Assembly (NCBI GenBank): GCA_037141135.1
Contig: JBAXDB010000001.1
Span: forward strand, 9,191-73,190
DNA from: a bacterium
GTDB taxonomy: Bacteria > Verrucomicrobiota > Kiritimatiellia > CAIKKV01 > CAITUY01
DNA length: 64,000 bases
Direction: 5' to 3'
Part shown: one piece after another, positions 9,286 through 21,710 of the stretch
Layout: every line of letters begins with the position of its first letter
Position numbering within the stretch: the first letter of the stretch is position 1
Made by a program: the position numbers and the translations under genes
The notes under the pieces: generated by a model
What the model was told of the DNA's origin: nothing
Databases searched by the model: none
What the model saw: the letters and a program-made list of their open reading frames with translations, nothing else

Positions 9286-10875
9286 TTACTTGGTATGGGG
9301 TTCGCGCCAGGGGCCGCGATACTCGTAGGCAAAGTAGACTCGGCCGTAAAAACGGGATCGCTCAATCTGCTGAAAGTAAAGCGCCTTCTCCCAAACCCAC
9401 TTATCGTTATCGAGCAGGATGGCGGGGCGGCCCAGCAACTGCGGATTACCCAGATCCGTGTCTGGAAAGTAATCGTAAGAGGATTCCCGTCCCCCCATAT
9501 AACTGTCGGCGCTGCAAACCTGGGGGTGGTTTTTGACATAGAAGGCCAGCAAGGCGGCCCGCCCATAGGTTGATGCGATATAGAACGGCTCCTGACCTGT
9601 GTCCTTTTTCAGTTCTGCGGCGGCGCATTCGACGCTCTTTACAATTTCCTTGAATCCCGTGACACGCTTTAGCATGGGCTGGGTGCTGATTTTGATTCCT
9701 AGAATTTTGGTCCCATTGATGGCGGCTATGGGATATTTGCCCAATGCGATAAACAGGAGGCTGACGAGCCCGATCCCAACGGTCCATCGCCAGAGCTTAC
9801 GGGTGACGGCATCACTGGCGTGATGTGCGGCCAGATAGCTGGCCAGGGGAATAAGGAAAACAGTAAAACCAGCCGCCGGCCAGTTCAGTTTGACGTCGGT
9901 GCGTGATGAAATCAGCAGGTAGAAGGTCAGGATGGGGATGGCGGTGTGCAGGGCGTAAGACATGATGTCCCGGGCGTTCGATGGGGTGTTTTGCGGCTTG
10001 AAGGCTTCGCGCATGGCCCGGAACAGCAGGAATGCCGCCGGGGGAGCCAGAATGGCCAGTGGATAGATGAAGTAGGAGAGCGTCCAGAGCGGGTTGTATG
10101 GCCAGCCGCTATGGGCGGGGGCATCGCCACCGGGCAGCCGGGTGGCACCTATCAGATGGGCCAGAGTGGGCCAGTCTCTCTGAACATTCCAGATGTATAT
10201 GGGCATGGAGAAAAGAATGATGCCGGTGAGAACCGCGACTAGGGCGGGGAGTCGCTGCTTCCAGGATTGAACCACATGGCGGAAGAGGTATAACAGGATG
10301 CCGGGCAATACCAGCAGAATGGTGTATTTGCACAGCATGCCCACTCCAATCATTGAGCCCAGCAGGAAGAACGCGGCAGTGGATGAGGTTTGTTTTTGCT
10401 TCATGTGCCACCCCGTGAAGGCGGCGGTGATCCAACAGACATAGTAGGGACCGGCAGTGGTCATGAATTGGGCGGTTCCCTGGAAGACCGGGATCAGATT
10501 GAACAGGAGAAAGGCAAACCAGCCCGCCCTCATGTTCCCGCCGGAGGCGGACATGGCAAAGCGCGATAATATCAGGCTGGCGGCGAATGAGGCCAAAGCG
10601 GCGGGGAGCCGAACCGCCCACTCTGTGATGCCGAAAAAGTGGACGCTGGCGGCGATCAGCCAGGCGACCACCGGGCCCTTGCTGTAATAGGACCAATCAA
10701 GGCGTCGGGACCAGTCCCAGTACTGGGCTTCATCGGGGACCAGATCGTAGGGACAGACCCAGATCAGGTAGGCGATACGAATGGCCAGAATGGCCAGGGC
10801 GGCGAGCAAAATGCCCGCCCAACCCTTAGCCATTCGCGAGAATGGGTGGTCCAATAACGACATGGACGCAAACAT
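9286..10875 (-). CDS. GT-C glycosyltransferase, ArnT/PMT family (GT83/GT39-like)
   Basis: It has a DEAQYW aspartate motif in the first periplasmic loop and a KGP..AW motif. A multi-TM N-terminal domain is followed by a soluble C-terminal domain, at 529 aa. Confidence 0.75.
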   Translation of the reverse strand: MFASMSLLDHPFSRMAKGWAGILLAALAILAIRIAYLIWVCPYDLVPDEAQYWDWSRRLDWSYYSKGPVVAWLIAASVHFFGITEWAVRLPAALASFAASLILSRFAMSASGGNMRAGWFAFLLFNLIPVFQGTAQFMTTAGPYYVCWITAAFTGWHMKQKQTSSTAAFFLLGSMIGVGMLCKYTILLVLPGILLYLFRHVVQSWKQRLPALVAVLTGIILFSMPIYIWNVQRDWPTLAHLIGATRLPGGDAPAHSGWPYNPLWTLSYFIYPLAILAPPAAFLLFRAMREAFKPQNTPSNARDIMSYALHTAIPILTFYLLISSRTDVKLNWPAAGFTVFLIPLASYLAAHHASDAVTRKLWRWTVGIGLVSLLFIALGKYPIAAINGTKILGIKISTQPMLKRVTGFKEIVKSVECAAAELKKDTGQEPFYIASTYGRAALLAFYVKNHPQVCSADSYMGGRESSYDYFPDTDLGNPQLLGRPAILLDNDKWVWEKALYFQQIERSRFYGRVYFAYEYRGPWREPHTK

Positions 10876-10911: not shown

Positions 10912-12672
10912 TCACACCTCATGGTGCGCGTAGTGCGTATGCAGAAGCTCATGAGAGAGATGACTCAGCGGTTTTTCAAGGAACTCCTTGTAGAGCGCCT
11001 TGATCGCCGGGTTCTCGTGTGATTTGCGCAGGGGCATGTCGATGTCTTCCACATAAAGGGACTTTGCCCGCGCCTCGCGTTTTTCGCGGTCCGGCAGCAC
11101 GGGTTGACCGCCGCCGCCAATGCAGCCGCCCGGACAGGTCATCACTTCAATAAATGCATATTCTGATTTCCCGGCAGCGATCTCGTCCAGCAGGACCCTT
11201 GCATTTTTAAGTGTATGCGCCACTGCGACCTTCAGGGTTGTTCCCCCCACATCCAGTGCGGCATGTTTGATGCCCTCAAGCCCGCGTACCGCCGTAAGGT
11301 TGATATTGGGCAGAGGCTGGCCTGTGGCCACTTCATATGCTGTGCGGACGGCAGCTTCCATGACGCCACCGGTGGTGCCGAAAATAACTGCGGCGCCCGT
11401 GGATTGACCCAGGGGATCGTCAAAGGACTCCTCCTCGAGGTGGGAAAAATCCAAACCCACGTTCTTGATCATGCGGGCCAGTTCCCGGGTGGTCAGAACG
11501 TAATCCACATCAAAGTAGGGCTCCACGCCTTTCTGCCCCTTCTGCTTCCACCATTTCCAGGCGGACTGCATTTCAGGACGGTGTGCTTCGAATTTTTTTG
11601 CGGTGCAGGGCATGATGGACACCACCACCATGTTGGCCGGGTCGATGCCGACTTTTTCGGCGTAGTAACTCTTGGCCAGGGCGCCGAACATCTGTTGGGG
11701 CGACTTGCACGACGAAAGGTGCTTGAGCAGTTTCGGGTAGAACGTTTCAATAAACGAGATCCACCCCGGCGAACAACTGGTGATCATGGGCAGGGTCCCG
11801 CCCGTGGTCAGCCGTTGCAGAAGTTCTGTTCCCTCCTCCATGATGGTGAGATCGGCCGAGAACTGGGTGTCGAACACGCGGTTGAAGCCCAGTTTCCGCA
11901 AGGCCGCCACCATTTTGCCAGTCACCAGCGCGCCCATTTCCATGCCCATGGCTTCGCCAATGGAGGCCCGGATGGCCGGAGCGGTCTGGACCACCACGAT
12001 TTTCGAGGGATCCCGCAGGGCTTTGAACACCTCGTCGGTTTCGTCGTTTTCCACAATGGCCGCCGTGGGGCAGACCACCGTGCATTGACCGCAGTTTGTG
12101 CAGACGGAATGTTTCAGTCCCTGATCCATGAAGGTCCCGATATGCGTCCGGATGCCTCGGCCGGCGAAATCAATGGCCGCCACACTTTGCACCTCTTTGC
12201 ACACGGCCACACAGCGGCCGCAGAGGATGCACTTGTTGTTGTCCCGGGTGATGGACGGGCTGGTTCCGTCCAGAGCCACCGTTTTTTTGGTGGCCGGGAA
12301 ACGGGCCTGCCGTACGTTCAGGCGCTCCGCCATGGACTGGAGTTCGCAAGAGCCGTTCCGGATGCAGGAGAGGCAATCCATGGGATGGTTTGCCAGCAGC
12401 AGTTCAACGGCCGTTTTGCGGGCCGCCAGCACGCGGGTGGAGGCCGTCTTCACGTCCATGTTCGGGGTGACCTTGGTGACGCAGGAGCGCGTCAGACTTC
12501 TTCCGCCCTTGACTTCCACCACGCATACCCCGCATGAGGCGTTGTCCGCCACATCGCGCAGGTAACATAGTGTGGGCAGATTGATGCCGGCCGACCGGCA
12601 CGCATCGAGAATAGTGGTTCCGGATTCAACATCCACGCGAACTCCGTCAATTGTCATTGAGATTGTTGCCAT
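10912..12672 (-). CDS. hydA: [FeFe]-hydrogenase catalytic subunit (HydA/HndD, M3 architecture: 2Fe-2S, 3x 4Fe-4S, H-cluster domain)
   Basis: It is strongly CpI-like: MPCTAKKFE (L2), EVMTCPGGCIGGGGQP (L3), and L1 reading TSCSPGW. There is an N-terminal 2Fe-2S ferredoxin domain and ferredoxin-type Cys motifs. The start is at the ATG at 12672, preceded by a GGAGG RBS. Confidence 0.9.
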   Translation of the reverse strand: MATISMTIDGVRVDVESGTTILDACRSAGINLPTLCYLRDVADNASCGVCVVEVKGGRSLTRSCVTKVTPNMDVKTASTRVLAARKTAVELLLANHPMDCLSCIRNGSCELQSMAERLNVRQARFPATKKTVALDGTSPSITRDNNKCILCGRCVAVCKEVQSVAAIDFAGRGIRTHIGTFMDQGLKHSVCTNCGQCTVVCPTAAIVENDETDEVFKALRDPSKIVVVQTAPAIRASIGEAMGMEMGALVTGKMVAALRKLGFNRVFDTQFSADLTIMEEGTELLQRLTTGGTLPMITSCSPGWISFIETFYPKLLKHLSSCKSPQQMFGALAKSYYAEKVGIDPANMVVVSIMPCTAKKFEAHRPEMQSAWKWWKQKGQKGVEPYFDVDYVLTTRELARMIKNVGLDFSHLEEESFDDPLGQSTGAAVIFGTTGGVMEAAVRTAYEVATGQPLPNINLTAVRGLEGIKHAALDVGGTTLKVAVAHTLKNARVLLDEIAAGKSEYAFIEVMTCPGGCIGGGGQPVLPDREKREARAKSLYVEDIDMPLRKSHENPAIKALYKEFLEKPLSHLSHELLHTHYAHHEV

Positions 12673-12691: not shown

Positions 12692-15600
12692 TTACCAGGG
12701 AACACGAGCATTATCACGAACATCACAACGCAAACACCGCAGTGACTCACTGCGGGCCTGCTGGCCCGAATAGCCCTGCATAATTTCCGTGAAGTTGCCG
12801 CACCGCTCCTTGACCGGAATATCGCGCACCGTTACCTTCGCGCATTTTTTCGGATTTAAAGGAACCTCCATGCCATAGTCGAATTTGCGGAACAACTTAC
12901 TGAACCGGTCTTCGCCGGTCAGTTGCTTGTCGATCGCCTGTGCGGCCCGTTTGGCAAGTCCCATCGCCTCGCTGGCCGTGGCGGGGCCCGTCACCGCATC
13001 ACCCACCGCATAAATATTCGGCGCGGTAGTCTTCAGGGTGAAATTGTCGATGCGCACCGTTCCATTGCGGGCGCACTCGATGCCGTCCCTGGGCAGATCC
13101 TTTGAGCCTACCCGTTCCCCGATGGCCAGGAGAACCGCATCGCAGGGGATTTCAATGGTTTGCCCGGTGGGGATCGGGGTGGGGCGTCCGCTTTTATCCA
13201 ACGTTCCCGGCTTCATTTGCTGGAATCGCACCGCCCGGACCCGGCCCTTGGCATCGCCCAGGAAGGCTTCGGGGGCCATCATATACATGAAGCGAACGCC
13301 CTCGTCTTCGGCACCATCCAGTTCCGTCGCATTGGCGGGCATATCGCTGCGTCCGCGCCGGTAGGTCACCGTCACATCCGAGCCGAGCCTCCACAAGGTT
13401 CTGGCAGCATCAATGGCGACATTCCCGCCGCCAATGATCAGGGTTTTCTTGCCAGGCACGCCGGTCTTTTGCATGTTGAACGCTTCCAGGAAGTGGTAGC
13501 CGGGATAGACGCCCTTGAGTTCTTCGCCGGGCAGGCCGATCTTCTGGTCTTCCTGCGCTCCGATGGCGATGATGACGGCGTCATTCTGTTTGGCCAGCGT
13601 TTTGAGCGGGATATCCTTGCCCACACGCGTTTCGAACACGAAACGGACCCCGAGTTTTTTTATAAAGTCAACTTCCTTGTCCATCACCTCACGCGGCAGC
13701 CGGTAGGCGGGGATTCCGTAGCGCATGATTCCGCCCGCCTTTTTATGTTCGTCATAGATCGACACGCTATGGCCGAGCCGCGCCAAGTAGAAGGCGGCCG
13801 TAAGGCCGGCCGGGCCGGCGCCCACAATGGCGATTTTCCTGCCGGTGGCCGGTTGCTTTTCATCAATGAGCTTCTTGTAGATCGCCTTTTCCTTGCCCAT
13901 TTTGTACATCGTATCGGCCAGATAGCGGTGGATCTCGTTTTGAGCCACCGCCTGATCCAGATCCTCGCGGCGACACCGCATCTGGCAGTGGAAGTGACAG
14001 ACGCGACCAATGCTGCCGGGGAACGGATTGTCACGCAGGGTAAGCTCGAAGGCGTCCTCGATGCGCCCTTCCTTGAGCAAGGTGAGGTAGCCCGGGATAT
14101 TCATATGCAGAGGACAGGAGTTTTCGCAAAGGGCCAGGTACAGGCTTTCGCAGGCACCCGACGAACACCGCCGTTCGCGGATATGCTCCAGATATTCATC
14201 CTTGAAATATTTGAGTGTCGTCAGCACCGGGTTGGCGGCGGTCTGGCCCAGGCCGCACAATGAGGAATCGCGGATGACCTGTGCGAGTGCTTCAAGCTCG
14301 GCGATGTCCTTTTCCGTGCCTTTTCCGTTTGAAATGGACGTCAGAAGGCGCAGGGACTGGGACAACCCCTCGCGGCATGAGGTACACTTGCCGCAGGATT
14401 CAGCGGCAGTGAACCCGACAAAGTAACGGGCCACATCCACCATGCAGTTGTCCTGATCCATGACCACCATACCCCCGGAGCCCATGATCGCACCCAGGGC
14501 GGCGAGCGAATCGTAGTCGACCGGAGTCTTGAAATGTTCCACAGGGATACAGCCGCCTGAGGGTCCGCCGGTTTGCACCGCCTTGATCTTCTTGTTGAAG
14601 GAACCGGTTCCTTCGCCCATGCCGTAAACGATGGTCTCGATGGGCGTTCCGAGCGGCAATTCCACCAGGCCGGTGTTTTTTACCTTGCCCACGAGGGAAA
14701 AGACCTTGGTGCCCGCGCTTTGCGCCGTTCCGATCCCGTTGAACCACCCGGAACCCGCCGAAAGGATAGCGGGAACATTGCACAGGGTCTCCACATTATT
14801 GATGTTTGTTGGTGAATTGTTATAGCCACGCTCGGCCGGGTAGGGGGGGCGTGGCAAGGGGCGCCCTGCCTTGCTTTCCGCCGAGGCAATCAAGGCGGTT
14901 TCTTCGCCGCATACAAACGCGCCGGCGCCCTGGATGATCTCGATATCGAAACTGAAGCCCGAGCCCAGGATGTTCTTGCCCAGCAACCCGCGACTGCGTG
15001 CCGCCTGGATTGCCTTATTCAGGCGTTCGACGGCAAGGGGATATTCGGCCCGGATATACACGATACCCGACGGCGTCCCCATGGCATAGGCGCCGATGGC
15101 CATGCCTTCAATCAGCATGTGCGGATCGCTTTCAATTTCGTTCCGGTTCATGTAGGCGCCGGGATCACCCTCGTCGGCATTACAGATGATGAATTTGCCG
15201 GGTGAGGTCTGGGCCTGCATCATTTCCCACTTGCGGCCGGTCGGAAATCCCGCGCCCCCGCGGCCGCGCAGCTTGGAGTCCTTGACGGTTTCAATGACCT
15301 GCGTCGGGGTCATTTTCAGCAACGCCTTTGCTAAGGGGGCATAGCCGCCGACGGCGATATAGTCTTCGATCGATTCGGGATCAATCAGGCCGCAATCCCG
15401 GAGAACGATTTTTTTCTGGCCTTTGAAAAAGGGGATCTCATTCCATGCCGGCGTCTCAGGGTAGCCGGTTCCGAACGATACCTTGCCGGTCACAAAGTCC
15501 CAGGCTTCGATCTTGGCGCGGGCGTTCTTAGACAATGTTTCAGCGGCCTGGGAGTTGGTGGCCGCTTTCAACACCTCGGCGCATTGTTTGACCTGGAACT

Positions 15601-15865
15601 TGCTGAACAGCAGGATGGGCTTGCCGGGGAGATACAGCATGACTAGGGGTTCCTCGGCACAGAAGCCGAAGCAACCGGTGCGTTTCAGTGCGACCGGTGC
15701 TTTCATTTTTTTGATCATGGTACCGAACGCCTCAAACACTTTATCGGCGTCGTTGCCAATACCGCAGGTGCCCAGTCCGACGCTGATCATCGGCTTATGC
15801 GGGGCTACGGAGGCCAGGGCGGTTTGGCGCAGTAAATCAAGATCGTGCAGGCTTTGGATGATCAT
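12692..15865 (-). CDS. hndC: hydrogenase flavoprotein subunit: NuoF-like (HndC) fused to a GltD/NfnB-like NAD(P)H-FAD oxidoreductase domain
   Basis: An N-terminal thioredoxin-like 2Fe-2S domain is followed by the NuoF core (GRGGAGFPTG, ESCGKCTSCREG). A Cys-rich linker follows (CSSGACESLYLALCENSCP), then IAIVGAGPAGLTAA and TLIIGGGNVAIDAA Rossmann folds typical of GltD/NfnB. The protein is 1057 aa. Confidence 0.85.
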   Translation of the reverse strand: MIIQSLHDLDLLRQTALASVAPHKPMISVGLGTCGIGNDADKVFEAFGTMIKKMKAPVALKRTGCFGFCAEEPLVMLYLPGKPILLFSKFQVKQCAEVLKAATNSQAAETLSKNARAKIEAWDFVTGKVSFGTGYPETPAWNEIPFFKGQKKIVLRDCGLIDPESIEDYIAVGGYAPLAKALLKMTPTQVIETVKDSKLRGRGGAGFPTGRKWEMMQAQTSPGKFIICNADEGDPGAYMNRNEIESDPHMLIEGMAIGAYAMGTPSGIVYIRAEYPLAVERLNKAIQAARSRGLLGKNILGSGFSFDIEIIQGAGAFVCGEETALIASAESKAGRPLPRPPYPAERGYNNSPTNINNVETLCNVPAILSAGSGWFNGIGTAQSAGTKVFSLVGKVKNTGLVELPLGTPIETIVYGMGEGTGSFNKKIKAVQTGGPSGGCIPVEHFKTPVDYDSLAALGAIMGSGGMVVMDQDNCMVDVARYFVGFTAAESCGKCTSCREGLSQSLRLLTSISNGKGTEKDIAELEALAQVIRDSSLCGLGQTAANPVLTTLKYFKDEYLEHIRERRCSSGACESLYLALCENSCPLHMNIPGYLTLLKEGRIEDAFELTLRDNPFPGSIGRVCHFHCQMRCRREDLDQAVAQNEIHRYLADTMYKMGKEKAIYKKLIDEKQPATGRKIAIVGAGPAGLTAAFYLARLGHSVSIYDEHKKAGGIMRYGIPAYRLPREVMDKEVDFIKKLGVRFVFETRVGKDIPLKTLAKQNDAVIIAIGAQEDQKIGLPGEELKGVYPGYHFLEAFNMQKTGVPGKKTLIIGGGNVAIDAARTLWRLGSDVTVTYRRGRSDMPANATELDGAEDEGVRFMYMMAPEAFLGDAKGRVRAVRFQQMKPGTLDKSGRPTPIPTGQTIEIPCDAVLLAIGERVGSKDLPRDGIECARNGTVRIDNFTLKTTAPNIYAVGDAVTGPATASEAMGLAKRAAQAIDKQLTGEDRFSKLFRKFDYGMEVPLNPKKCAKVTVRDIPVKERCGNFTEIMQGYSGQQARSESLRCLRCDVRDNARVPW

Positions 15866-16377
15866 CGGCGTTCCTCCTTTTGAAGTTTTTCAATGAGCCC
15901 GAGCAATTTGCCAGGGGTGATATGCGAGTGAATGATGCCGTCAATCGCCACCACAGGCGCAAGGGCACACTGTCCGAAGCAGGCGACCGTCCGCACCGTA
16001 AAGATTTTGTCAGGGGTGGTGAACGAGGCTTCCTCATCTTCCTCAAAGTCGCTGAATCCCAATTTTGCGGCCGCCTCCATGAGGAGGGTGCGTGAGCCGC
16101 GGGTGTGGCAGGCGGTGCCCCTGCAAACCACGATCGTGTGTTTGCCCTGTGGCTTAAGGTTGAAGAACGAATAAAAAGTGGCCACCGAATAAACCTGAGA
16201 CATCGGTATGCCCGCTTTTTTTGCGACCTCCTTGAGCGTGTCCTCGCTTAAGTGGTTATGCGCGTCGTTGACTTGAAGCTCCTCGAGAATACTGAGCAGG
16301 CTGCCAGGCTTCCCCTGATATTTATGGATCGCCGATTCAAGCGCAGGAGTTCTCTTCTTTTCTGGTTTTTTCTTCAT
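15862..16377 (-). CDS. hndA: NuoE-like 2Fe-2S thioredoxin-like hydrogenase subunit (HndA/HydC)
   Basis: VCRGTACHTRGS...VACFGQCALAP is the NuoE/24 kDa 2Fe-2S motif. It overlaps hndC by 4 nt. Confidence 0.85.
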   Translation of the reverse strand: MKKKPEKKRTPALESAIHKYQGKPGSLLSILEELQVNDAHNHLSEDTLKEVAKKAGIPMSQVYSVATFYSFFNLKPQGKHTIVVCRGTACHTRGSRTLLMEAAAKLGFSDFEEDEEASFTTPDKIFTVRTVACFGQCALAPVVAIDGIIHSHITPGKLLGLIEKLQKEERR

Positions 16378-16389
16378 ACTTTCCCCTTT

Positions 16390-16405
16390 TTGTCGATGTG
16401 GACAA
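16390..16405. promoter_or_regulatory. palindrome TTGTCGATGTGGACAA 13-28 nt upstream of the hndA start, in the AT-rich divergent hyd promoter region
   Basis: It is a perfect 5-bp inverted repeat (TTGTC/GACAA) with a 6-nt spacer. It sits in the 161-bp AT-rich region between divergent hndA and hydG. The TTGT...ACAA ends resemble Rex-type half-sites but the spacing is shorter. Confidence 0.3.
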
Positions 16406-16538
16406 ATCTACGAAAGTTAGGACATTATCAGGAAATATATTTGACATCAATCCGTAACGTTAAATATTTAACTATTTTTAATTTGATCTCGATGAATGTT
16501 TCCCATGATAATGTAGCCGCAAAAAGTCAGGAAAATAT

Positions 16539-17942
16539 ATGGACGATATACAGATGGGGAAGAGTATAATTTGCGAAGCTGACATCGAGCGGCAGTTACT
16601 CGCGGGGCAGGGTGAGGATGCTGGTAGGATCCGTGAGATACTGGCCAAGGCGGCTCTGGCCCAGGGGTTGACAGATGCGGAAGTGGCGGTTCTGATGGAG
16701 ATCCGGAGCCCTGCGTTGGCCCACGAGTTGTTTCAGACTGCCAGTCAGGTCAAGGACATCATTTACGGCAAGCGGCTGGTTATTTTTGCCCCGCTCTACA
16801 TTTCGAACCTGTGCGGTAACGAATGTCTTTACTGCGCGTTCCGGGCGCGCAACACGGCTATCAAACGCCGCGCGCTCACGCAGGAGGAGATTGCCCACGA
16901 GGTGAAAGCCCTGGTGGAGCAGGGCCACAAACGCTTGTTGGTGGTGGCTGGCGAATCTTATCCGCGGGAGGGGTTCGACTATGTGCTCAAGGCCATCGAA
17001 ACCGTCTACAGTGTCAAGTCCGGCCGCGGCGAGATCCGTCGCGTTAACGCGAACGTGGCGCCCCTCACGATCGATGAATTCAAGCAACTCAAAGCCGCCA
17101 AGATCGGCACTTACCAGCTTTTCCAGGAGACGTATCACAGGGCCACCTACAGCCGGATGCACGTGGCGGGCCGCAAGAAGGATTTCGACTGGCGCGTGAC
17201 GGGGATTGATCGTGCCATGACGGCGGGCATCAATGATGTGGGGATCGGCGTGCTGCTTGGTCTCTGCGACTGGAAGTTCGAGGTTATGGCCCTGCTCCAG
17301 CACATCCATCATCTGGAAAAGGAATTCGGGGTGGGGCCCCACACGATCAGTGTGCCGCGTTTGGAGCCTGCCACTGGATCGGATGTTTCGATTCAGCCGC
17401 CGAGCCCGGTGACCGATGACGATTTCCGCAAGATTGTCGCCATTCTCCGCCTGGCCGTTCCCTATACGGGCATCATCATGTCCACCCGCGAAAACGCGCA
17501 GATGCGGCGCGAAGGGTTTGATCTGGGCATCTCGCAGATCTCAGCGGGCAGCCGCACGGATCCGGGCGGCTATTCGACGGATAGCTCCGGCGAAGTAAAC
17601 GGTCAGTTCTCATTGGGTGACCACCGCTCCCTCGATGAGGTGATTGCAGATGTGGCCGCGCTGGGCTACATTCCATCTTTCTGCACCGGGTGTTACCGGC
17701 TTGGGCGAACCGGCGCGGATTTCATGGACATGGCCAAACCCGGTGAGATCAAGTCGCATTGCGGCCCCAACGCGGTCTCGACCTTTGCCGAATACCTGCT
17801 GGACTATGCTTCGCCCGTTACCCGCGAGGCCGGGTTCCAGTTGATCGATAAGGTTATCGGTGATATGACCGGCGTGGCGAAAGAACGGTCCGAACGCCTC
17901 CTGAAGCAAGTCAAGGAAGGGAAGCGGGACGTTTACTGCTAA
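16539..17942 (+). CDS. hydG: [FeFe]-hydrogenase maturase HydG (radical SAM tyrosine lyase)
   Basis: The ThiH-like radical SAM motif CGNECLYCAF is present, with the C-terminal auxiliary-cluster motif CTGCYRLGRTG...HCGPN. Confidence 0.9.
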   Translation: MDDIQMGKSIICEADIERQLLAGQGEDAGRIREILAKAALAQGLTDAEVAVLMEIRSPALAHELFQTASQVKDIIYGKRLVIFAPLYISNLCGNECLYCAFRARNTAIKRRALTQEEIAHEVKALVEQGHKRLLVVAGESYPREGFDYVLKAIETVYSVKSGRGEIRRVNANVAPLTIDEFKQLKAAKIGTYQLFQETYHRATYSRMHVAGRKKDFDWRVTGIDRAMTAGINDVGIGVLLGLCDWKFEVMALLQHIHHLEKEFGVGPHTISVPRLEPATGSDVSIQPPSPVTDDDFRKIVAILRLAVPYTGIIMSTRENAQMRREGFDLGISQISAGSRTDPGGYSTDSSGEVNGQFSLGDHRSLDEVIADVAALGYIPSFCTGCYRLGRTGADFMDMAKPGEIKSHCGPNAVSTFAEYLLDYASPVTREAGFQLIDKVIGDMTGVAKERSERLLKQVKEGKRDVYC

Positions 17943-17944
17943 TA

Positions 17945-19342
17945 ATGAGAACCGAGCAGGATTCATTGGGTGAGCGGCAGGTGCCTGAGGGCGCACTCTA
18001 TGGTATTCACACGCTGCGGGCATTGGAGAATTTCCCGCTCAGCGGGCGTCCGGTGCATCCGGCGCTGGCCGCGGCGTATGGGACCGTGAAGCTCGCCTGC
18101 GTACGGACCAACCGGCGCCTTGGCATGTGGGCGGATGAGGCCCTGGTGGATGCCCTGGAGTCCGCCTGCCGCGAACTGATGGACGGGCGGCTGGTGGAGC
18201 ATATCCGCGTGGATGCCCTGCAGGGCGGTGCGGGAACATCCACCAACATGAACGTGAACGAGGTGCTGGCGAACCGGGCTCTGGAACTGCTCGGGCAACC
18301 GTGCGGCGCGTATAATGTCATTTCCCCACTCAACGATCTCAACCTGCACCAGTCCACGAATGACACCTTCCCCACGGCGTTGCGGCTGGCTGCCATCAGG
18401 AGTCTGCATGCCCTGGAGGCGCGGGTGACGTCCTTGCAGGAGGCCTTCCAGGCCAAGGAGAAAGAATTTGCGGATGTCGTCAAAGTCGGCCGAACGGAGT
18501 TTCAGGATGCGGTGTTGATCACGTTGGGGCGCGAAATGGGCGCGTATGCCGAGGCCTTTAATCGTGATCGCTGGCGACTCTACAAATGTGAGGAGCGGCT
18601 GCGCGTGGTGAATCTGGGCGGCACGGCCGTGGGCACTGGCCTGGGGGCGCCGCGTGATTACATCTTCCGCGTGGTGGATGAACTGCGCGAACTGACCGGC
18701 ATCGGTTTTGCGCGCGCCGAGAATCTGGTGGACGCCACGCAGAACACGGATGTGCTGGTGGAGGTATCTGGTATTCTCAAGGCCTGTGCGACCTCGCTCA
18801 TTAAGATTGCCAACGATGTACGGCTGCTTTCCAGCGGGCCGGATGCCGGGCTGGGCGAACTGCGACTGCCGGCGATGCAGGCTGGCTCCTCGATCATGCC
18901 GGGCAAGGTGAACCCGGTGATCCCCGAGGCGGTGGTGCAGGCCGCCTTGCGGGTGCTGGGCAATGACAGCACTATTGCCATGGCCTCGGCCATGGGCAGT
19001 CTGGAATTGAATGCGTTTATGCCGCTCATGGCGGATTGCCTGCTTGAAAGCCTGGATCTGTTAACCCGGGCCTGCGCCCTGTTCGATGAGCTTTGCGTAC
19101 GTGGTTTGGTCGCTTGTGCGGAGCAGTGTCGCGTACATGTTGATGGCACGGTCGCTGCCGCAACGGCGCTGGTGCCGGTGTTGGGCTATGAACGGGCTGC
19201 AGAGTTGGCCGCTGAAGTTGCAAGGTCCGGTCGGCCGCTGCGGGACCTGATAGTGGAGAGGGGCATTCTGACCGCCGAAGCTTTCACTGAACTAATTTCC
19301 GCCGAAGCCGTTTGCCGCCTCGGCCATCCTAAACAAAAATGA
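17945..19342 (+). CDS. aspartate ammonia-lyase/fumarase class II family protein embedded in the hyd maturase operon
   Basis: GSSIMPGKVNP is the fumarate-lyase signature. It is translationally coupled: 2 nt after hydG, with a 4-nt overlap to hydF. Confidence 0.85.
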   Translation: MRTEQDSLGERQVPEGALYGIHTLRALENFPLSGRPVHPALAAAYGTVKLACVRTNRRLGMWADEALVDALESACRELMDGRLVEHIRVDALQGGAGTSTNMNVNEVLANRALELLGQPCGAYNVISPLNDLNLHQSTNDTFPTALRLAAIRSLHALEARVTSLQEAFQAKEKEFADVVKVGRTEFQDAVLITLGREMGAYAEAFNRDRWRLYKCEERLRVVNLGGTAVGTGLGAPRDYIFRVVDELRELTGIGFARAENLVDATQNTDVLVEVSGILKACATSLIKIANDVRLLSSGPDAGLGELRLPAMQAGSSIMPGKVNPVIPEAVVQAALRVLGNDSTIAMASAMGSLELNAFMPLMADCLLESLDLLTRACALFDELCVRGLVACAEQCRVHVDGTVAAATALVPVLGYERAAELAAEVARSGRPLRDLIVERGILTAEAFTELISAEAVCRLGHPKQK

Positions 19343-20577
19343 ATAAGACTCCAAAAGGGTATCGGCTGCATATCGGCATCTTTGGCCGGCGCAATGTGGG
19401 CAAATCGAGCGTGCTGAATGCGATTACCAGTCAGCAGGTGTCGATCGTCTCCGACGTGGCCGGCACGACGACTGATCCGGTGGAGAAGCCCATGGAACTG
19501 CTGCCGCTCGGGCCGGTTCTCTTTATCGATACTGCCGGGGTGGATGATGAAGGCATGCTCGGCGACTTGCGCGTGCAGCGCACGAAGCAGGTGCTCGAAC
19601 GGACCGACCTGGGACTGATTATTACCGAGGGCCGCACATGGGGTTCCTACGAGCAGACGCTGGCGGCAGAACTCAAGCGGCGCAAGGTGACGGTTCTTGT
19701 TATCTTTAACAAATCGGATGTGGCCACTGTGGATGCGGACCTTATGGCCCGGCTTCTGGCCGAAGGTATTCGCAGTCTGGCCGTCTCGGCCCGGACGGGT
19801 GCGGGGATCCAATCGCTGCGGCGGCTCCTTGTGGAGTTGGCGCCGGAGGACTTTATTGCCAGTCCCAAGATTGCGGGCGATCTGGTGCCGCCGGGCGACT
19901 GTGCGGTGTTGGTGGTGCCGGTGGATAAAGAAGCGCCCAAGGGACGCCTGATTCTGCCGCAGGTGCAGACGATCCGTGATCTGCTGGACAACGATTCCTA
20001 TTGCCTGGTCGTCAAAGAACGCGAATTGCGTGAGGCCTTGGGGCGGCTGAACCGGCCTCCGGCGCTCGTGGTGACAGATTCCCAGGCGTTTCTCAAGGTG
20101 GCGGCGGATACGCCTGAGTCTGTGCCTCTGACATCGTTTTCGATTCTATTTGCCCGATTTCACGCGGATTTGGACGAGATGGTGCGGGGGGCTCTGGCGA
20201 TTGCGAAGCTCAAGGGCGGTGACCACGTTCTGATCGCCGAGGCCTGCTCGCATCACCCGATCGGTGAGGACATCGGCACGATCAAGATTCCGCGCTGGCT
20301 GACGCAGTATGTGGGTGGTAAGCTGGAGTTCGAGTACACCCGCGGTCATGATTTTCCTGCCGACCTGGCGAAGTACAAGCTCATCATTCATTGCGGGGCC
20401 TGCATGTGGAACCGGCGTGAGATGCTTTCGCGGCACCTGGTGGCACGGGAAGCTGGTGTGCCCATGACCAACTACGGGCTGGCGATTGCGTTCTCGCTCG
20501 GGATCTTTGAGCGCGCCCTGCGGCCCTTTCCCGGTGCCTATGAAATTTACCGGAAAAGTCAGGGAGTGACGATATGA
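19339..20577 (+). CDS. hydF: [FeFe]-hydrogenase maturase GTPase HydF
   Basis: The GTPase motifs GRRNVGKSS and DTAG are present, and the C-terminal cluster-binding motifs CSHHP and HCGAC. Confidence 0.9.
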   Translation: MNKTPKGYRLHIGIFGRRNVGKSSVLNAITSQQVSIVSDVAGTTTDPVEKPMELLPLGPVLFIDTAGVDDEGMLGDLRVQRTKQVLERTDLGLIITEGRTWGSYEQTLAAELKRRKVTVLVIFNKSDVATVDADLMARLLAEGIRSLAVSARTGAGIQSLRRLLVELAPEDFIASPKIAGDLVPPGDCAVLVVPVDKEAPKGRLILPQVQTIRDLLDNDSYCLVVKERELREALGRLNRPPALVVTDSQAFLKVAADTPESVPLTSFSILFARFHADLDEMVRGALAIAKLKGGDHVLIAEACSHHPIGEDIGTIKIPRWLTQYVGGKLEFEYTRGHDFPADLAKYKLIIHCGACMWNRREMLSRHLVAREAGVPMTNYGLAIAFSLGIFERALRPFPGAYEIYRKSQGVTI

Positions 20578-21710
20578 GTGCGCTGGCCGATCTGGTGCAA
20601 CAGACGGAATTCAGCCGCGAGGAGATTGCGTTCCTGCTGGGCAGGCGTGACAAGGCTGAAGTGGAAATGTTGCGTAAGGCTGCGGAGGCATTGTGCTTCG
20701 CCTGCGTGGGCAACAAGGTTCACTTCCGCGGACTGGTAGAGTTCTCAAACATCTGCGTGTGCGACTGTCACTACTGCGGGATCCGCAAAAGCAACCCGGC
20801 CCCAACGCGCTTCTTCCTGACCCTGGATGAGGTGATGCAAGCCGCGCACTGGTGCGCGGAGCAGGGCTACGGGTCGCTCGTGCTGCAGTCGGGTGAGCGG
20901 CGTGATGAGCCGTTCATCCAGTTTGTGGAAAATGCGGTCCGGATGATCAGGGCCGGGACGCGGACGGTGAAGCAGCCCGACGGGCTTGGCATCACCCTGT
21001 GTGTGGGGGAGCAGACGCGGGAGACCTATACGCGGTTCAAGGCGGCGGGAGCGCATCGTTACCTGCTGCGCATTGAATCGTCTTCTCCGCGGCTGTTTCG
21101 CCAGTTGCATCCCCCGGGGCAGACTCTTGAGCAGCGGGTGCAGTGTCTGCATTGGCTGCGCGAAGCGGGTTTCCAGGTGGGGACAGGCGTGATGATCGGG
21201 TTCCCCGGCCAGACGCTGGAAGACCTGGCGGATGATGTGCTGTTTTTCCAGTCGCAGGACGTGGATATGATTGGCATGGGGCCCTACATTGTGCATAAGC
21301 AGACGCCCATGGCGGTGCATGAGGCCGGGATGGCCCTGAGGCGCGATGAGATTTACCAGTTGGCGCTCAACATGATTGCGGTGACGCGGCTGGTACTGCG
21401 GAACGTGAACATTGCGGCGACCACGGCGCTTCAGGCGATGAAGCCCACGGGCCGTGAGGAAGGCCTGACCTATGGGGCCAACGTGATCATGCCGCAACTT
21501 ACCCCCACGGAGTTCCGCAAGGATTACCAGCTCTATGAAGGCAAGCCGTGTCTGGACGAAAATCGCGACTTGTGCAAGATGTGTCTTGAAAAGCGCATTG
21601 CCGGTATCGGCAGGGTCATTGGCTATCACGAATGGGGCGATTCGCGGCACGCCCGCGACCGGCAGGCCGCTGCGCCGCTTCATGAAGATCTGAATTGTCT
21701 TCAGCGATGA
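20574..21710 (+). CDS. hydE: [FeFe]-hydrogenase maturase HydE (radical SAM, BioB-like)
   Basis: The radical SAM motif is CVCDCHYCGIR. It overlaps hydF by 4 nt. Confidence 0.85.
   Translation: MSALADLVQQTEFSREEIAFLLGRRDKAEVEMLRKAAEALCFACVGNKVHFRGLVEFSNICVCDCHYCGIRKSNPAPTRFFLTLDEVMQAAHWCAEQGYGSLVLQSGERRDEPFIQFVENAVRMIRAGTRTVKQPDGLGITLCVGEQTRETYTRFKAAGAHRYLLRIESSSPRLFRQLHPPGQTLEQRVQCLHWLREAGFQVGTGVMIGFPGQTLEDLADDVLFFQSQDVDMIGMGPYIVHKQTPMAVHEAGMALRRDEIYQLALNMIAVTRLVLRNVNIAATTALQAMKPTGREEGLTYGANVIMPQLTPTEFRKDYQLYEGKPCLDENRDLCKMCLEKRIAGIGRVIGYHEWGDSRHARDRQAAAPLHEDLNCLQR

What the first reader, a model, noticed from the sequence alone, without database searches (positions are those of the whole stretch)
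12692..15865. Hydrogenase flavoprotein subunit is a NuoF-GltD fusion (1057 aa)
Within one protein, a complete HndC/NuoF-like module (GRGGAGFPTG, CGKCTSCREG) is followed by a Cys-rich ferredoxin-like linker and a two-Rossmann GltD/NfnB-type NAD(P)H:FAD oxidoreductase domain. Together with a three-gene hndA-hndC-hydA operon lacking a separate HndB, this suggests an NADPH-coupled, possibly electron-bifurcating or confurcating [FeFe] hydrogenase with a built-in second pyridine-nucleotide site.
Basis: partly seen in the sequence, partly recalled or inferred. Interest (0 to 1): 0.5.

Follow-up and report, generated by a model that had tools for sequence, protein, structure and literature searches.

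The report
Hydrogenase flavoprotein with NADPH arm
The middle gene of a three-gene iron-iron hydrogenase operon really encodes one 1057-residue protein in which the usual ferredoxin-reducing tail of the NADH-binding subunit is replaced by an NADPH-type flavin module; this architecture is widespread and was noted in a 2024 genomics paper, but nobody has tested what it does.

Summary
ORF 12692-15865 (-) is one continuous 1057-aa protein. A NuoF/HydB-type module (aa ~1-572) is followed by a GltD/NfnL-type 2x[4Fe-4S]+FAD+NAD(P)H module (aa ~575-1049). It lies between a NuoE-like gene and a group-A [FeFe] HydA gene, next to a divergent hydG-lyase-hydF-hydE set.

It is not a frameshift. More than 120 cluster representatives and about 40 genomes from many phyla carry the same uninterrupted ORF.

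- The NuoF module is not a complete HndC. Its C-terminal ferredoxin-like domain (clusters B3/B4, the ferredoxin site of bifurcating Bfu enzymes) is replaced, not supplemented.
- The 'Cys-rich linker' is half of the NfnL Fe-S domain. The other half (CxxC) sits at the extreme C-terminus, a circular permutation shared with StnC and Bfu-type NfnA.

The architecture is already published as 'sub-type I BfuABC' (Zheng & Huang 2024, PMC11406978), including BfuD-less homologs in Kiritimatiellota, the likely phylum here. I found no biochemistry.

Most likely it is a ferredoxin-independent hydrogenase coupling H2 to both NAD(H) and NADP(H). This is inferred, not shown.

Verdict: new member of a described but uncharacterised kind; moderate interest.

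The parts
15862..16377 (-). hydC / bfuC: NuoE-like thioredoxin-fold [2Fe-2S] subunit (171 aa); cluster C1 ligands C85, C90, C133, C137
   Evidence: Pfam 2Fe-2S_thioredx 5.6e-40; NCBIfam HoxE/NuoE models; Cys positions; stop overlaps the hydB start, ATGA
12692..15865 (-). hydB-nfnL fusion (1057 aa): flavoprotein subunit with an FMN/NAD(H) module and an FAD/NADP(H) module
15461..15865 (-). aa 1-135: N-terminal thioredoxin-like domain with a 'B5'-type site, C34, C65, C69, E72 (3Cys+Glu, as in the Zn site of C. saccharolyticus NfnB)
   Evidence: alignment to 9n5u_B, 9bov_B and 8oh5_B; invariant in 42 close homologs; C34 and E72 co-vary with Gly/Ala in distant members; Zn 3C1E assignment from PMC11829005
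14438..15376 (-). aa 164-476: NuoF core with the FMN and NAD(H) site (GRGGAGFP loop; F207, K212, E322, Y342)
   Evidence: Pfam Complex1_51K; residue mapping onto the NADH contacts of Csac NfnB, F159, K164, E274, F294; K212 and E322 conserved 41/41
14183..14437 (-). aa 477-561: four-helix-bundle [4Fe-4S] cluster B1 (C491, C494, C497, C537)
   Evidence: Pfam NADH_4Fe-4S 1.2e-31; Cys conserved 41/41
14150..14185 (-). aa 561-572: hinge with B2-type 3Cys+His (Zn) site, H561, C567, C572 plus C474; the fusion junction follows 3-8 residues later
   Evidence: HIxxxxCxxxxC aligns to all solved Bfu B subunits; conserved 41/41; Zn 3C1H assignment from PMC11829005. That C474 is the third Cys is inferred.
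13898..14143 (-). aa 575-656: helical Fe-S domain of the NfnL/GltD module. Inferred ligands: FAD-proximal [4Fe-4S] C584, C623, C627, H646; distal [4Fe-4S] C580, C631 (plus C1044, C1047)
   Evidence: Pfam Fer4_20, profile positions 23-111 only; alignment to Csac NfnA, whose A7 ligands are C108, C147, C151, K170; conservation
12911..13858 (-). aa 670-985: two-Rossmann FAD (GAGPAG, aa 682-687) and NADP(H) (GGGNVA, aa 812-817; Y835-R836-R837) domain
   Evidence: Pfam Pyr_redox_2 1.3e-35; alignments to NfnA, StnC and NfnL; Foldseek to 5jca_L, TM 0.82, rmsd 2.1 A
12719..12823 (-). aa 1015-1049: permuted segment equivalent to the N-terminus of canonical NfnL/GltD; supplies C1044-x2-C1047
   Evidence: matches 5jca_L residues 13-47 and 9bov_A up to residue 570; the tail alone hits Fer4_20 positions 2-29, E=0.001; moving it in silico raises Fer4_20 from 74 to 90 bits with full profile coverage and gltA from 357 to 375.5 bits, positions 1-448
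10912..12672 (-). hydA: group-A [FeFe] hydrogenase catalytic subunit (586 aa, M3-type N-terminus; motifs TSCSPGW at 298, MPCTAKK at 354, EVMTCPGGCIGGGGQP at 509)
   Evidence: Pfam Fe_hyd_lg_C 1.9e-98 and Fe_hyd_SSU; NF040763 871.6 bits against cut-off 765; best PDB matches are T. kivui and A. woodii HydA1 of bifurcating HydABC; motifs
16378..16538 (.). AT-rich divergent intergenic region with promoter-like sites in both directions
   Evidence: GC 0.47 for 16000-16499; sigma-70-like matches on both strands. These are consensus matches only.
16539..21710 (+). divergent maturase operon: hydG (16539-17942), Lyase_1 aspartase/fumarase-like gene (17945-19342), hydF (19339-20577), hydE (20574-21710)
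   Evidence: Pfam families of the called genes on the identical contig L001; Lyase_1 9.9e-83

Best explanation
The three genes encode a soluble HydC-HydB*-HydA [FeFe] hydrogenase of the type published as 'sub-type I BfuABC'. HydA makes or splits H2. HydC and the N-terminal 572 residues of HydB* form the usual Bfu core: FMN with an NADH-type pocket, [4Fe-4S] B1, [2Fe-2S] C1 and the Zn hinge. The small ferredoxin-like domain (B3/B4) normally takes the low-potential electrons from C1 and hands them to ferredoxin. Here it is replaced by a circularly permuted NfnL-type module: distal [4Fe-4S], then a His-ligated proximal [4Fe-4S], then FAD, then NADP(H). The most likely reaction is therefore ferredoxin-independent and uses two pyridine nucleotides: 2 H2 + NAD+ + NADP+ <-> NADH + NADPH + 2 H+. 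NADP(H) occupies the branch that ferredoxin occupies in HydABC. Using in-vivo potentials quoted in the papers read (about -280 mV for NADH, about -370 mV for NADPH), coupling would allow H2 evolution up to roughly 100 Pa. NADH alone would allow only a few Pa. In the other direction, NADPH could be formed from H2 at pressures where direct reduction is unfavourable. Shown: gene order, domain architecture, conservation of every cofactor ligand, loss of B3/B4, the permutation, and wide distribution. Inferred: cofactor occupancy, NADH versus NADPH specificity, electron path, coupling, and physiological direction.
For: Architecture and absence of a Fer4 dicluster domain. Alignments to all solved HydB/NfnB/StnB chains end at aa ~576. 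Ferredoxin binds at the B3/B4 domain in Tsi NfnABC (PMC12018979), and enzymes lacking B3/B4 do not use ferredoxin (PMC9304861; PMC11406978). Ligands of B1, the B2 Zn site and both NfnL-type clusters, plus K212, E322 and R722, are conserved 41/41; YRR is conserved 40/41 at 40-60% identity. E322 equals Csac NfnB E274, which H-bonds the adenine ribose of NADH. The YRR motif is shared with the NADPH-specific enzymes NfnL, StnC and NfnA. The module is closest to Bfu-type NfnA: 362 bits against 294 for NfnL, with the same permutation. In those enzymes FAD is a simple NADPH entry point wired through two [4Fe-4S] clusters (PMC10482914; PMC11829005). HydA is closest to the HydA1 of bifurcating HydABC. 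The fold is confirmed. The operon is conserved in Paludibacter, a Spirochaete MAG and others.
Against: There is no biochemical or structural data for any member, as far as six literature searches showed. So it is unknown whether the distal cluster can come within electron-transfer distance of C1 or B1. NAD and NADP have the same standard potential, so a need for bifurcation rests on assumed in-vivo ratios. The FAD-proximal cluster has His646 instead of the Lys reported as strictly conserved in StnC, so its potential may differ. Ferredoxin could still dock at the distal cluster, as proposed for NfnSL. Nucleotide specificity cannot be read with certainty from motifs.
Confidence: 0.45

Rival explanations
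1. Uncoupled dual-nucleotide hydrogenase. The NfnL arm is just a second, independent entry or exit port. The enzyme reduces protons with NADH or with NADPH (or reduces either with H2) without obligatory coupling, like the non-bifurcating S. wolfei or S. aciditrophicus enzymes but with an added NADPH port.
For: B3/B4-less HydB homologs characterised so far are non-bifurcating (PMC9304861; PMC7311640; PMC11406978). FAD in the homologous StnC module is non-bifurcating. The B5 site is degenerate in 17 of 41 family members.
Against: An uncoupled enzyme would also act as a futile NADPH-to-NAD+ transhydrogenase. The HydC C1 ligands and the Zn hinge, which are the gating elements of Bfu enzymes, are strictly conserved. 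HydA and the B core are closest to bifurcating enzymes.
Confidence: 0.25
2. Four-substrate enzyme with two bifurcation centres, as suggested by Zheng & Huang. FAD in the NfnL arm bifurcates as in NfnSL, ferredoxin docks at the distal cluster, and the enzyme links H2, NAD, NADP and ferredoxin.
For: The module is homologous to bifurcating NfnL (5jca_L: 294 bits; TM 0.82). The Arg near FAD N5 (R722, equivalent to NfnB R201) is invariant. The NIPGY motif resembles NfnL rather than StnC. The proposal is in PMC11406978.
Against: A bifurcating FAD needs a second, high-potential exit (the NfnS [2Fe-2S] and FAD), and none is encoded in the operon. The same Arg is present in non-bifurcating StnC, so it does not discriminate. 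The module is closer to the non-bifurcating NfnA/StnC type and shares its permutation; the ancestral fourth ligand in the family is the StnC-type Lys (27 of 41).
Confidence: 0.15
3. The C-terminal module serves another acceptor or partner. It could work as a SudA-like sulfur/polysulfide reductase, or as a GltD-like electron donor to a glutamate-synthase-type subunit, so the complex links H2 to something other than NADP.
For: GltD-family modules serve many partners (PMC5736913). In the Asgard locus L013 the fused subunit lies beside a Glu_synthase-domain protein and two glutamate dehydrogenases.
Against: No such partner gene is near the operon in the window or in the Paludibacter or Spirochaete loci. 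The NADPH-type YRR motif is conserved in 40 of 41 members.
Confidence: 0.05
4. Assembly or frameshift artefact joining a hydB and a gltD gene.
For: None found.
Against: The identical ORF is on three assemblies. More than 120 full-length clusters exist. About 40 genomes of many phyla carry uninterrupted ORFs. The junction lies 3-8 residues after the conserved Zn-site Cys.
Confidence: 0

Closest known systems
'Sub-type I BfuABC' group A3 [FeFe] hydrogenase (Zheng & Huang 2024, mSystems, PMC11406978)
   Same: BfuB with B3/B4 replaced by a DPD_II (Fer4_20) domain plus an FAD/NAD(P) domain. Homologs are reported in Kiritimatiellota, Verrucomicrobiota, Spirochaetota and other phyla and generally lack BfuD. 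HydA is M3-type without a C-terminal [2Fe-2S].
   Different: Nothing architectural; this is another member, from a PVC/Kiritimatiellota-like MAG. That paper is purely genomic. It does not mention the permutation, the His/Lys ligand split, or the pairing of the fused subunit with non-[FeFe] partners.
Electron-bifurcating HydABC (T. maritima, A. woodii, T. kivui; PDB 7p5h, 7q4v, 8a6t)
   Same: Same three-subunit layout. HydA scores 608-641 bits against A. woodii and T. kivui HydA1. The B core scores 503-556 bits with the FMN, B1 and Zn-hinge ligands. HydC carries C1.
   Different: The HydB C-terminal 2x[4Fe-4S] ferredoxin-like domain is absent and replaced by a ~480-aa FAD/NADP(H) module. The N-terminal site is 3Cys+Glu.
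Bfu-type transhydrogenase NfnABC/StnABC (PDB 9bov, 9n5u, 8oh5)
   Same: Best structural and sequence match for both halves. It has the same permuted NfnL-like module, with two [4Fe-4S] clusters leading from FAD, and the same 3C1E and 3C1H sites as Csac NfnB.
   Different: There the NfnL-like module is inside the A subunit (with an Fdh-like domain), feeds the mid-potential path, and B keeps B3/B4 for ferredoxin. Here it is on B in place of B3/B4 and A is a hydrogenase. The fourth ligand of the proximal cluster is His646, not the Lys reported as strictly conserved in StnC.
NfnSL / NfnAB (PDB 5jca, 4ylf) and GltD
   Same: Fold (TM 0.82, rmsd 2.1 A), both Fe-S sites, the FAD and NADPH motifs and the NIPGY motif.
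   Different: Canonical order is CxxC segment first; here it is last. There is no NfnS partner. The proximal-cluster ligand is Glu in NfnL and His here.
Non-bifurcating NADH-dependent [FeFe] hydrogenases (S. wolfei Hyd1ABC, S. aciditrophicus HydAB)
   Same: The B subunit lacks B3/B4 and hence the known ferredoxin site.
   Different: Those simply lack the domain; this one carries a second flavin/nucleotide module in its place.
NADP-linked multimeric [FeFe] hydrogenases (D. fructosovorans HndABCD; C. autoethanogenum Hyt-Fdh)
   Same: Multimeric [FeFe] hydrogenases that use NADP(H). Hyt per PMC6288185; Hnd from my own knowledge.
   Different: In those enzymes NADP(H) is taken to react at the NuoF-type FMN site and ferredoxin is the second substrate (own knowledge). 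Here the FMN site looks NADH-type and NADP(H) would use a separate FAD module.

Membership tests
Bfu family, BfuB as defined by Schut et al. 2022 (PMC9304861) | NuoF-type FMN/NAD(H) site and [4Fe-4S] B1 | tested here: met
   Complex1_51K and NADH_4Fe-4S; C491, C494, C497, C537, K212 and E322 conserved 41/41
Bfu family, BfuB as defined by Schut et al. 2022 (PMC9304861) | B2 site (now assigned as Zn, 3Cys+His) after the helix bundle | tested here: met
   H561, C567 and C572 align to all solved B subunits; conserved 41/41 together with C474
Bfu family, BfuB as defined by Schut et al. 2022 (PMC9304861) | C-terminal ferredoxin-like domain with [4Fe-4S] B3 and B4 (the ferredoxin site) | tested here: not met
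   No Fer4 dicluster hit in the protein; alignments to HydB, NfnB and StnB end at aa ~576; an NfnL-type module takes its place
Bfu family, BfuB as defined by Schut et al. 2022 (PMC9304861) | N-terminal thioredoxin-like B5 site | tested here: inconclusive
   C34, C65, C69, E72 match the 3C1E Zn site of Csac NfnB rather than a 4-Cys [2Fe-2S]; degenerate in 17 of 41 family members
Bfu family, BfuB as defined by Schut et al. 2022 (PMC9304861) | Adjacent BfuC (NuoE-like) with [2Fe-2S] C1 | tested here: met
   15862-16377; four Cys in C-x4-C...C-x3-C spacing; present upstream in nearly all of the fetched fusion loci whose contig extends that far
Sub-type I BfuABC (Zheng & Huang 2024) | BfuB with DPD_II (Fer4_20) plus an FAD/NAD(P) domain instead of B3/B4 | tested here: met
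   against the description
Sub-type I BfuABC (Zheng & Huang 2024) | Clustered with bfuC and an H-cluster BfuA of M3a type; BfuD usually absent outside Hydrogenedentota | tested here: met
   Gene order hydC-hydB*-hydA with no fourth gene; the 586-aa HydA has no C-terminal [2Fe-2S] extension
Sub-type I BfuABC (Zheng & Huang 2024) | Phylogenetic placement in their concatenated ABC tree | not tested
NfnL / GltD-type iron-sulfur flavoprotein module | Two [4Fe-4S] sites in a Fer4_20 helical domain | tested here: met
   Eight ligand positions conserved 41/41. The Fer4_20 match is complete only after in-silico un-permutation (74 to 90 bits, profile 2-112)
NfnL / GltD-type iron-sulfur flavoprotein module | FAD Rossmann (GxGxxG) and NADPH Rossmann with a basic pair after beta-2 | tested here: met
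   GAGPAG at aa 682-687; GGGNVA at aa 812-817; Y835-R836-R837. Actual nucleotide specificity is not testable here.
NfnL / GltD-type iron-sulfur flavoprotein module | Canonical (non-permuted) order and an NfnS or GltB partner | tested here: not met
   The CxxC segment is C-terminal; no NfnS/PyrK-like or GltB gene is near the operon
Stn / Nfn-Bfu transhydrogenase | NfnL-like module located in the A subunit with an inactive Fdh/NuoG-like domain; Lys ligand on the proximal cluster | tested here: not met
   The module is on B; A is a hydrogenase; His646 at the K170 position
[FeFe] hydrogenase group A (HydA) | H-cluster motifs P1-P3 and a family model score above cut-off | tested here: met
   TSCSPGW, MPCTAKK, EVMTCPGGCIGGGGQP; NF040763 871.6 against 765; the P1 variant is identical to that of active A. 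woodii HydA1

The most novel reading that the evidence does not exclude
This is a ferredoxin-independent, pyridine-nucleotide-only electron-bifurcating/confurcating hydrogenase. The Bfu flavobicluster would split electrons from H2 between NAD+ (high-potential branch) and NADP+ (low-potential branch, through a His-ligated NfnL-type arm). The same fused 'NAD+NADP' flavoprotein would then be a portable module also plugged into Hox-type [NiFe] hydrogenases, formate dehydrogenases and HdrA-like subunits across bacteria, and into at least one Asgard archaeal MAG.
Probability: 0.35. Interest if true: 0.65.

Novelty: new member of a known kind. Interest (0 to 1): 0.4.

Why it matters
The mechanism of Bfu-type bifurcation is still debated. 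Nature has here replaced the ferredoxin arm with a different two-electron acceptor module. If the enzyme couples H2 to NAD and NADP together, it would be a new reaction class. It would link the catabolic and anabolic nucleotide pools directly to H2 without ferredoxin. It would also change how H2 thresholds and NADPH supply are modelled for abundant fermenters such as Kiritimatiellota, Spirochaetota, Bacteroidota and Acidobacteriota. If it is uncoupled, it still explains how these organisms dispose of or obtain NADPH-level reductant. The family is large, and it occurs in at least one genome that appears to be from an isolate (Paludibacter, GCA_001618385.1), so the question is directly testable.

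Tried and rejected
- Frameshift or assembly artefact: rejected.
- Rfam scan of the window for rRNA or other RNA to place the organism: no hits. SecA was used instead and points to Kiritimatiellia/Verrucomicrobiota at ~68% identity; closer hits are unnamed.
- The genome-contig scan hit its 600-stretch limit. Its best match was only 60% identical, so the window's own species was not recovered.
- I tried to decide bifurcating versus non-bifurcating FAD from the Arg near N5 (NfnB R201 / StnC R239). The residue (R722) is invariant in the family but is present in both reference enzymes, so the test does not discriminate.
- C1008 and C1022 in the tail looked like extra ligands. They are not conserved, so I dropped them. 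D39 as a fourth B5 ligand was also dropped; E72 is the conserved residue.
- The AlphaFold model has good domains but pTM 0.66 and no coordinates, so cluster-to-cluster distances and docking of the NADPH arm could not be assessed.
- Six literature searches for a biochemical or structural study of this architecture found none. The 2022 Bfu classification, the 2018 multimeric-hydrogenase review and the 2020 HydB comparison do not mention it.
- NuoF and GltD are so abundant that the counts would not have separated fusions from single-domain proteins.

Full report
**1. What is in the sequence**

The minus strand carries an ATG-started ORF at exactly 12692..15865 that encodes 1057 aa.

Pfam places four domains on it:

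| Domain | Residues | E-value |
|---|---|---|
| Complex1_51K | 194-365 | 1.5e-44 |
| NADH_4Fe-4S | 477-561 | 1.2e-31 |
| Fer4_20 | 566-656 | 2e-20 |
| Pyr_redox_2 | 677-968 | 1.3e-35 |

NCBIfam matches NuoF over residues 164-562 and NADPH-dependent glutamate synthase (gltA, TIGR01316) over 572-981.

Upstream on the same strand is a 171-aa NuoE-like gene (15862..16377). Its stop overlaps the fusion's start codon (ATGA). Nineteen bases downstream, behind a GGAGG site, a 586-aa HydA starts at 12672. HydA scores 871.6 bits on the NCBIfam model 'NADH-dependent [FeFe] hydrogenase, group A6', whose cut-off is 765.

Across an AT-rich 161-bp spacer lies a divergent operon: hydG, a Lyase_1 gene, hydF and hydE. 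There is no HndB/BfuD gene.

**2. It is not an artefact**

- The identical protein is encoded on three independent metagenome assemblies.
- The 120 best database clusters are all 1041-1121 aa and cover 98-100% of the query at 60-100% identity.
- A pattern scan of one genome per species returned about 55 full-length copies at 39-60% identity. They come from Bacteroidota, Omnitrophota, Acidobacteriota, Chloroflexota, Desulfobacterota, Firmicutes, Verrucomicrobiota, Planctomycetota, Armatimonadota, Gemmatimonadota, Alphaproteobacteria and an Asgard MAG.
- I translated 41 of these loci in frame. 35 read through to the end of the match, 5 stopped 12-24 nt before the end of the tblastn match, and L024 failed only because I started it in the wrong frame. 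That left 40 ORFs of 1004-1058 aa for the family alignment.

**3. Anatomy of the N half**

Residues 26-576 align end to end with the B subunits of every solved Bfu enzyme. The scores are 600 bits for T. sibiricus NfnB, 600 for A. mobile NiFe-HydB, 578 for C. saccharolyticus NfnB, 567 for S. ovata StnB, and 503-556 for the three HydB proteins.

Residue mapping onto the C. saccharolyticus structure paper (PMC11829005) gives the following:

| Site | Residues in this protein | Note |
|---|---|---|
| NADH pocket | F207, K212, E322, Y342 | Correspond to F159, K164, E274, F294 of Csac NfnB; E274 H-bonds the adenine ribose of NADH |
| B1 [4Fe-4S] | C491, C494, C497, C537 | |
| B2 hinge site (3Cys+His, now assigned as Zn) | H561, C567, C572, probably C474 | C474 as the third Cys is inferred |
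| N-terminal site (3Cys+Glu) | C34, C65, C69, E72 | Same pattern as the Zn 'B5' site of that enzyme |

All of these are invariant in 42 close homologs. Apart from the N-terminal site, they are conserved 41/41 in the 40-60% identity set.

All alignments stop at about residue 576, while the reference chains continue into their 2x[4Fe-4S] ferredoxin-like domain. No Fer4 dicluster domain is detected in the protein. So the NuoF/HndC module is not complete: B3/B4 is missing.

**4. Anatomy of the C half**

Residues 580-1051 align best to the NfnL-like domain inside the A subunit of Bfu-type transhydrogenases. Scores are 362 bits for Csac NfnA 104-570, 331 for Tsi NfnA and 312 for StnC. Canonical P. 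furiosus NfnL follows at 294 bits, and GltD at 205.

The extreme C-terminus (aa ~1015-1049, ...ERCGNFTEI...RCLRCDV) matches residues 13-47 of NfnL, which is the N-terminal CxxC segment of the canonical protein. This explains why Pfam's Fer4_20 match starts only at profile position 23.

I tested the implied circular permutation directly:

- The tail alone hits Fer4_20 positions 2-29 (E=0.001).
- Moving the tail in silico in front of residue 578 extends the Fer4_20 match to positions 2-112 and raises it from 74 to 90 bits.
- The same move raises gltA from 357 bits (positions 31-448) to 375.5 bits (positions 1-448).

The permutation is shared with StnC and Bfu-type NfnA, which suggests that kind of module was the donor.

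Using the published A7 ligands of Csac NfnA (C108, C147, C151, K170), the FAD-proximal cluster here is C584, C623, C627 and H646. The distal cluster is inferred to be C580, C631, C1044 and C1047. All eight positions are occupied in 41/41 sequences.

Position 646 is Lys in 27 members and His in 14. The His form defines the window's subclade and is invariant in the 42 close homologs. NfnL has Glu at this position. In StnC the Lys is reported as strictly conserved, and K170A and K170C variants largely lose activity (PMC10482914).

The FAD motif is GAGPAG and the second Rossmann motif is GGGNVA. It is followed by Y835-R836-R837, the same YRR found in the NADPH-specific NfnL, StnC and NfnA, and conserved in 40/41 members.

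An AlphaFold model built on the 42-sequence alignment has mean pLDDT 83. Confidence is low only in the cofactor loops. Foldseek superposes the N half on Bfu B subunits (TM up to 0.94) and the C half on NfnL (TM 0.82, rmsd 2.1 A). No solved chain covers both halves; the maximum query-normalised TM is 0.50.

**5. Context and distribution**

SecA from the window finds unnamed 'bacterium' MAGs at 94% identity. The nearest named relatives, at about 68%, are Kiritimatiellia, Verrucomicrobiota and Lentisphaerae MAGs. The organism is therefore a PVC-group, Kiritimatiellota-like bacterium.

The same hydC-hydB*-hydA operon is present in a Paludibacter genome that appears to be from an isolate (GCA_001618385.1) and in a Spirochaete MAG.

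In the fetched loci the fused subunit is preceded by a NuoE-like gene in nearly every case where the contig extends far enough. The downstream partner varies:

| Partner | Loci |
|---|---|
| H-cluster HydA | L004, L005, L017, L019-22, L024, L032-34, L037, L044 |
| HoxU-, HoxY- and HoxH-like genes (a Hox-type [NiFe] hydrogenase) | L008 |
| FdhA-type molybdopterin subunit | L025 |
| HdrA-like fusion | L018 |
| HoxU-like subunit, then a Glu_synthase-domain protein and two glutamate dehydrogenases (Asgard MAG) | L013 |

The fused flavoprotein is therefore a portable module, not a hydrogenase-specific invention.

**6. What is already known**

Zheng & Huang (mSystems 2024, PMC11406978) classified the group A3 [FeFe] hydrogenases of Hydrogenedentota into five sub-types. 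[quoted passage not shown] They speculate about a second, FAD-based bifurcation centre, with no experiments.

The JBC 2025 NfnABC paper notes that NfnL-like domains occur in proteins annotated as [FeFe] hydrogenase group A. The 2022 Bfu classification requires B1-B5 and does not discuss this type.

Six full-text searches found no biochemical or structural study of this architecture.

**7. How it most likely works (inference)**

In solved Bfu enzymes the bifurcation site is the B1-FMN-C1 flavobicluster. The mobile HydC/NfnC C-terminal domain carries C1 to B3/B4, and ferredoxin binds between that domain and the B3/B4 domain (PMC11829005; PMC12018979). Homologs without B3/B4 do not react with ferredoxin.

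In this protein the B3/B4 domain is replaced, just after the Zn hinge, by a module that in its closest relatives is a plain NADPH:FAD entry port wired through two [4Fe-4S] clusters.

The simplest reading is that NADP(H) takes ferredoxin's place on the low-potential branch, while the FMN site keeps NAD(H). The reaction would be 2 H2 + NAD+ + NADP+ <-> NADH + NADPH + 2 H+.

I used in-vivo potentials quoted in the papers read: about -280 mV for NADH (PMC9304861 abstract) and about -370 mV for NADPH (PMC6288185). With 29.6 mV per decade of H2 pressure (my calculation), a confurcating NADH+NADPH enzyme would equilibrate near 100 Pa H2. NADH alone would equilibrate at a few Pa and NADH+ferredoxin near 0.1 bar. 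The few-Pa figure agrees with the 2.2-40 Pa measured for the S. aciditrophicus enzyme (abstract). Coupling would also prevent a futile NADPH-to-NAD+ short circuit.

I put this reading at about 0.45. The uncoupled dual-port enzyme gets about 0.25, a four-substrate enzyme with ferredoxin about 0.15 and another acceptor or partner about 0.05. The remainder is unassigned.

**8. Verdict**

However, the NADPH module replaces the ferredoxin arm rather than adding to it, and the 'linker' is part of a permuted Fe-S domain.
- The architecture is published but biochemically uncharacterised. This locus is a new member from a Kiritimatiellota-like MAG.
- Details I did not find in the papers I read are the permutation shared with StnC/NfnA, the Lys/His split at the proximal cluster, the 3Cys+Glu N-terminal site, and the pairing of the fused subunit with [NiFe], Fdh, HdrA-like and glutamate-synthase-like partners.
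- Interest is moderate (0.4). It would be higher only if the NAD+NADP coupling is demonstrated.

Noticed in passing
L008:5992-11850; L025:6001-11696; L018:6001-12430; L013:5992-14169: The same NuoF-NfnL fused subunit, with a NuoE-like gene upstream, is paired with partners other than [FeFe] HydA. These are HoxU-, HoxY- and HoxH-like genes (a Hox-type [NiFe] hydrogenase) in a Bryobacterales MAG; an FdhA-type molybdopterin subunit in Dehalococcoidia; an HdrA-like fused subunit; and, in a Promethearchaeota (Loki) MAG, a HoxU-like subunit followed by a Glu_synthase-domain protein and two glutamate dehydrogenases.
   Followed up: partly
window 13928-13930 (codon of His646 of the fusion): The fourth ligand position of the FAD-proximal [4Fe-4S] is His in the window's subclade (14 of 41 diverse members; invariant in 42 close homologs) and Lys in the rest. 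The same position is Lys in StnC/NfnA and Glu in NfnL. In StnC the Lys is reported as strictly conserved, and K170A/K170C variants largely lose activity.
   Followed up: partly
window 15650-15766 (codons of C34 to E72 of the fusion): The N-terminal 'B5' site is 3Cys+Glu, like the Zn site of C. saccharolyticus NfnB. Across the wider family C34 and E72 co-vary: both are present in 24 members and both are replaced by Gly/Ala in 17. The site therefore seems dispensable.
   Followed up: partly
window 17945-19342 (+): A 465-aa Lyase_1/FumaraseC_C (aspartase/fumarase-like) gene sits between hydG and hydF inside the maturase operon, with overlapping or abutting reading frames. Its role in H-cluster maturation, if any, was not examined.
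   Followed up: no
window 11776-11796 (HydA aa 293-299 region; motif TSCSPGW at aa 298-304): The HydA P1 motif is TSCSPGW rather than the textbook TSCCPxW. The same variant is in the active A. woodii HydA1 (7q4v_A), and Zheng & Huang note Ser as common at this position, so it is compatible with activity.
   Followed up: partly
L024, L031, L037, L043, L045, L014: In several genomes the fusion-type operon lies directly next to a second, conventional hydC-hydB-hydA set. This suggests the two hydrogenase types are used side by side.
   Followed up: no
window 26041-27690 (+): An ETF:quinone oxidoreductase-like protein (Fer4_ETF_QO and ETFQO_UQ-bd domains) is encoded about 4 kb beyond the maturase operon. 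This hints at membrane-linked electron transfer in this putative fermenter.
   Followed up: no
window 9286-10875 (-) and 55345-56733 (-): Two PMT_2-type (ArnT/dolichyl-phosphate-mannose-like) membrane glycosyltransferases. One lies immediately downstream of hydA on the same strand, but it is probably not part of the hydrogenase function because it is absent from the Paludibacter and Spirochaete loci.
   Followed up: partly
fusion aa 529-1047 against NCBIfam PRK12771 (profile 2-511 of 566): A stand-alone 566-aa family (PRK12771, 'NAD(P)-binding protein') aligns from aa 529 of the fusion. That start lies inside the end of the NuoF helix bundle and the Zn hinge. This suggests that split or ancestral forms of the C-terminal half exist as separate proteins.
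   Followed up: no
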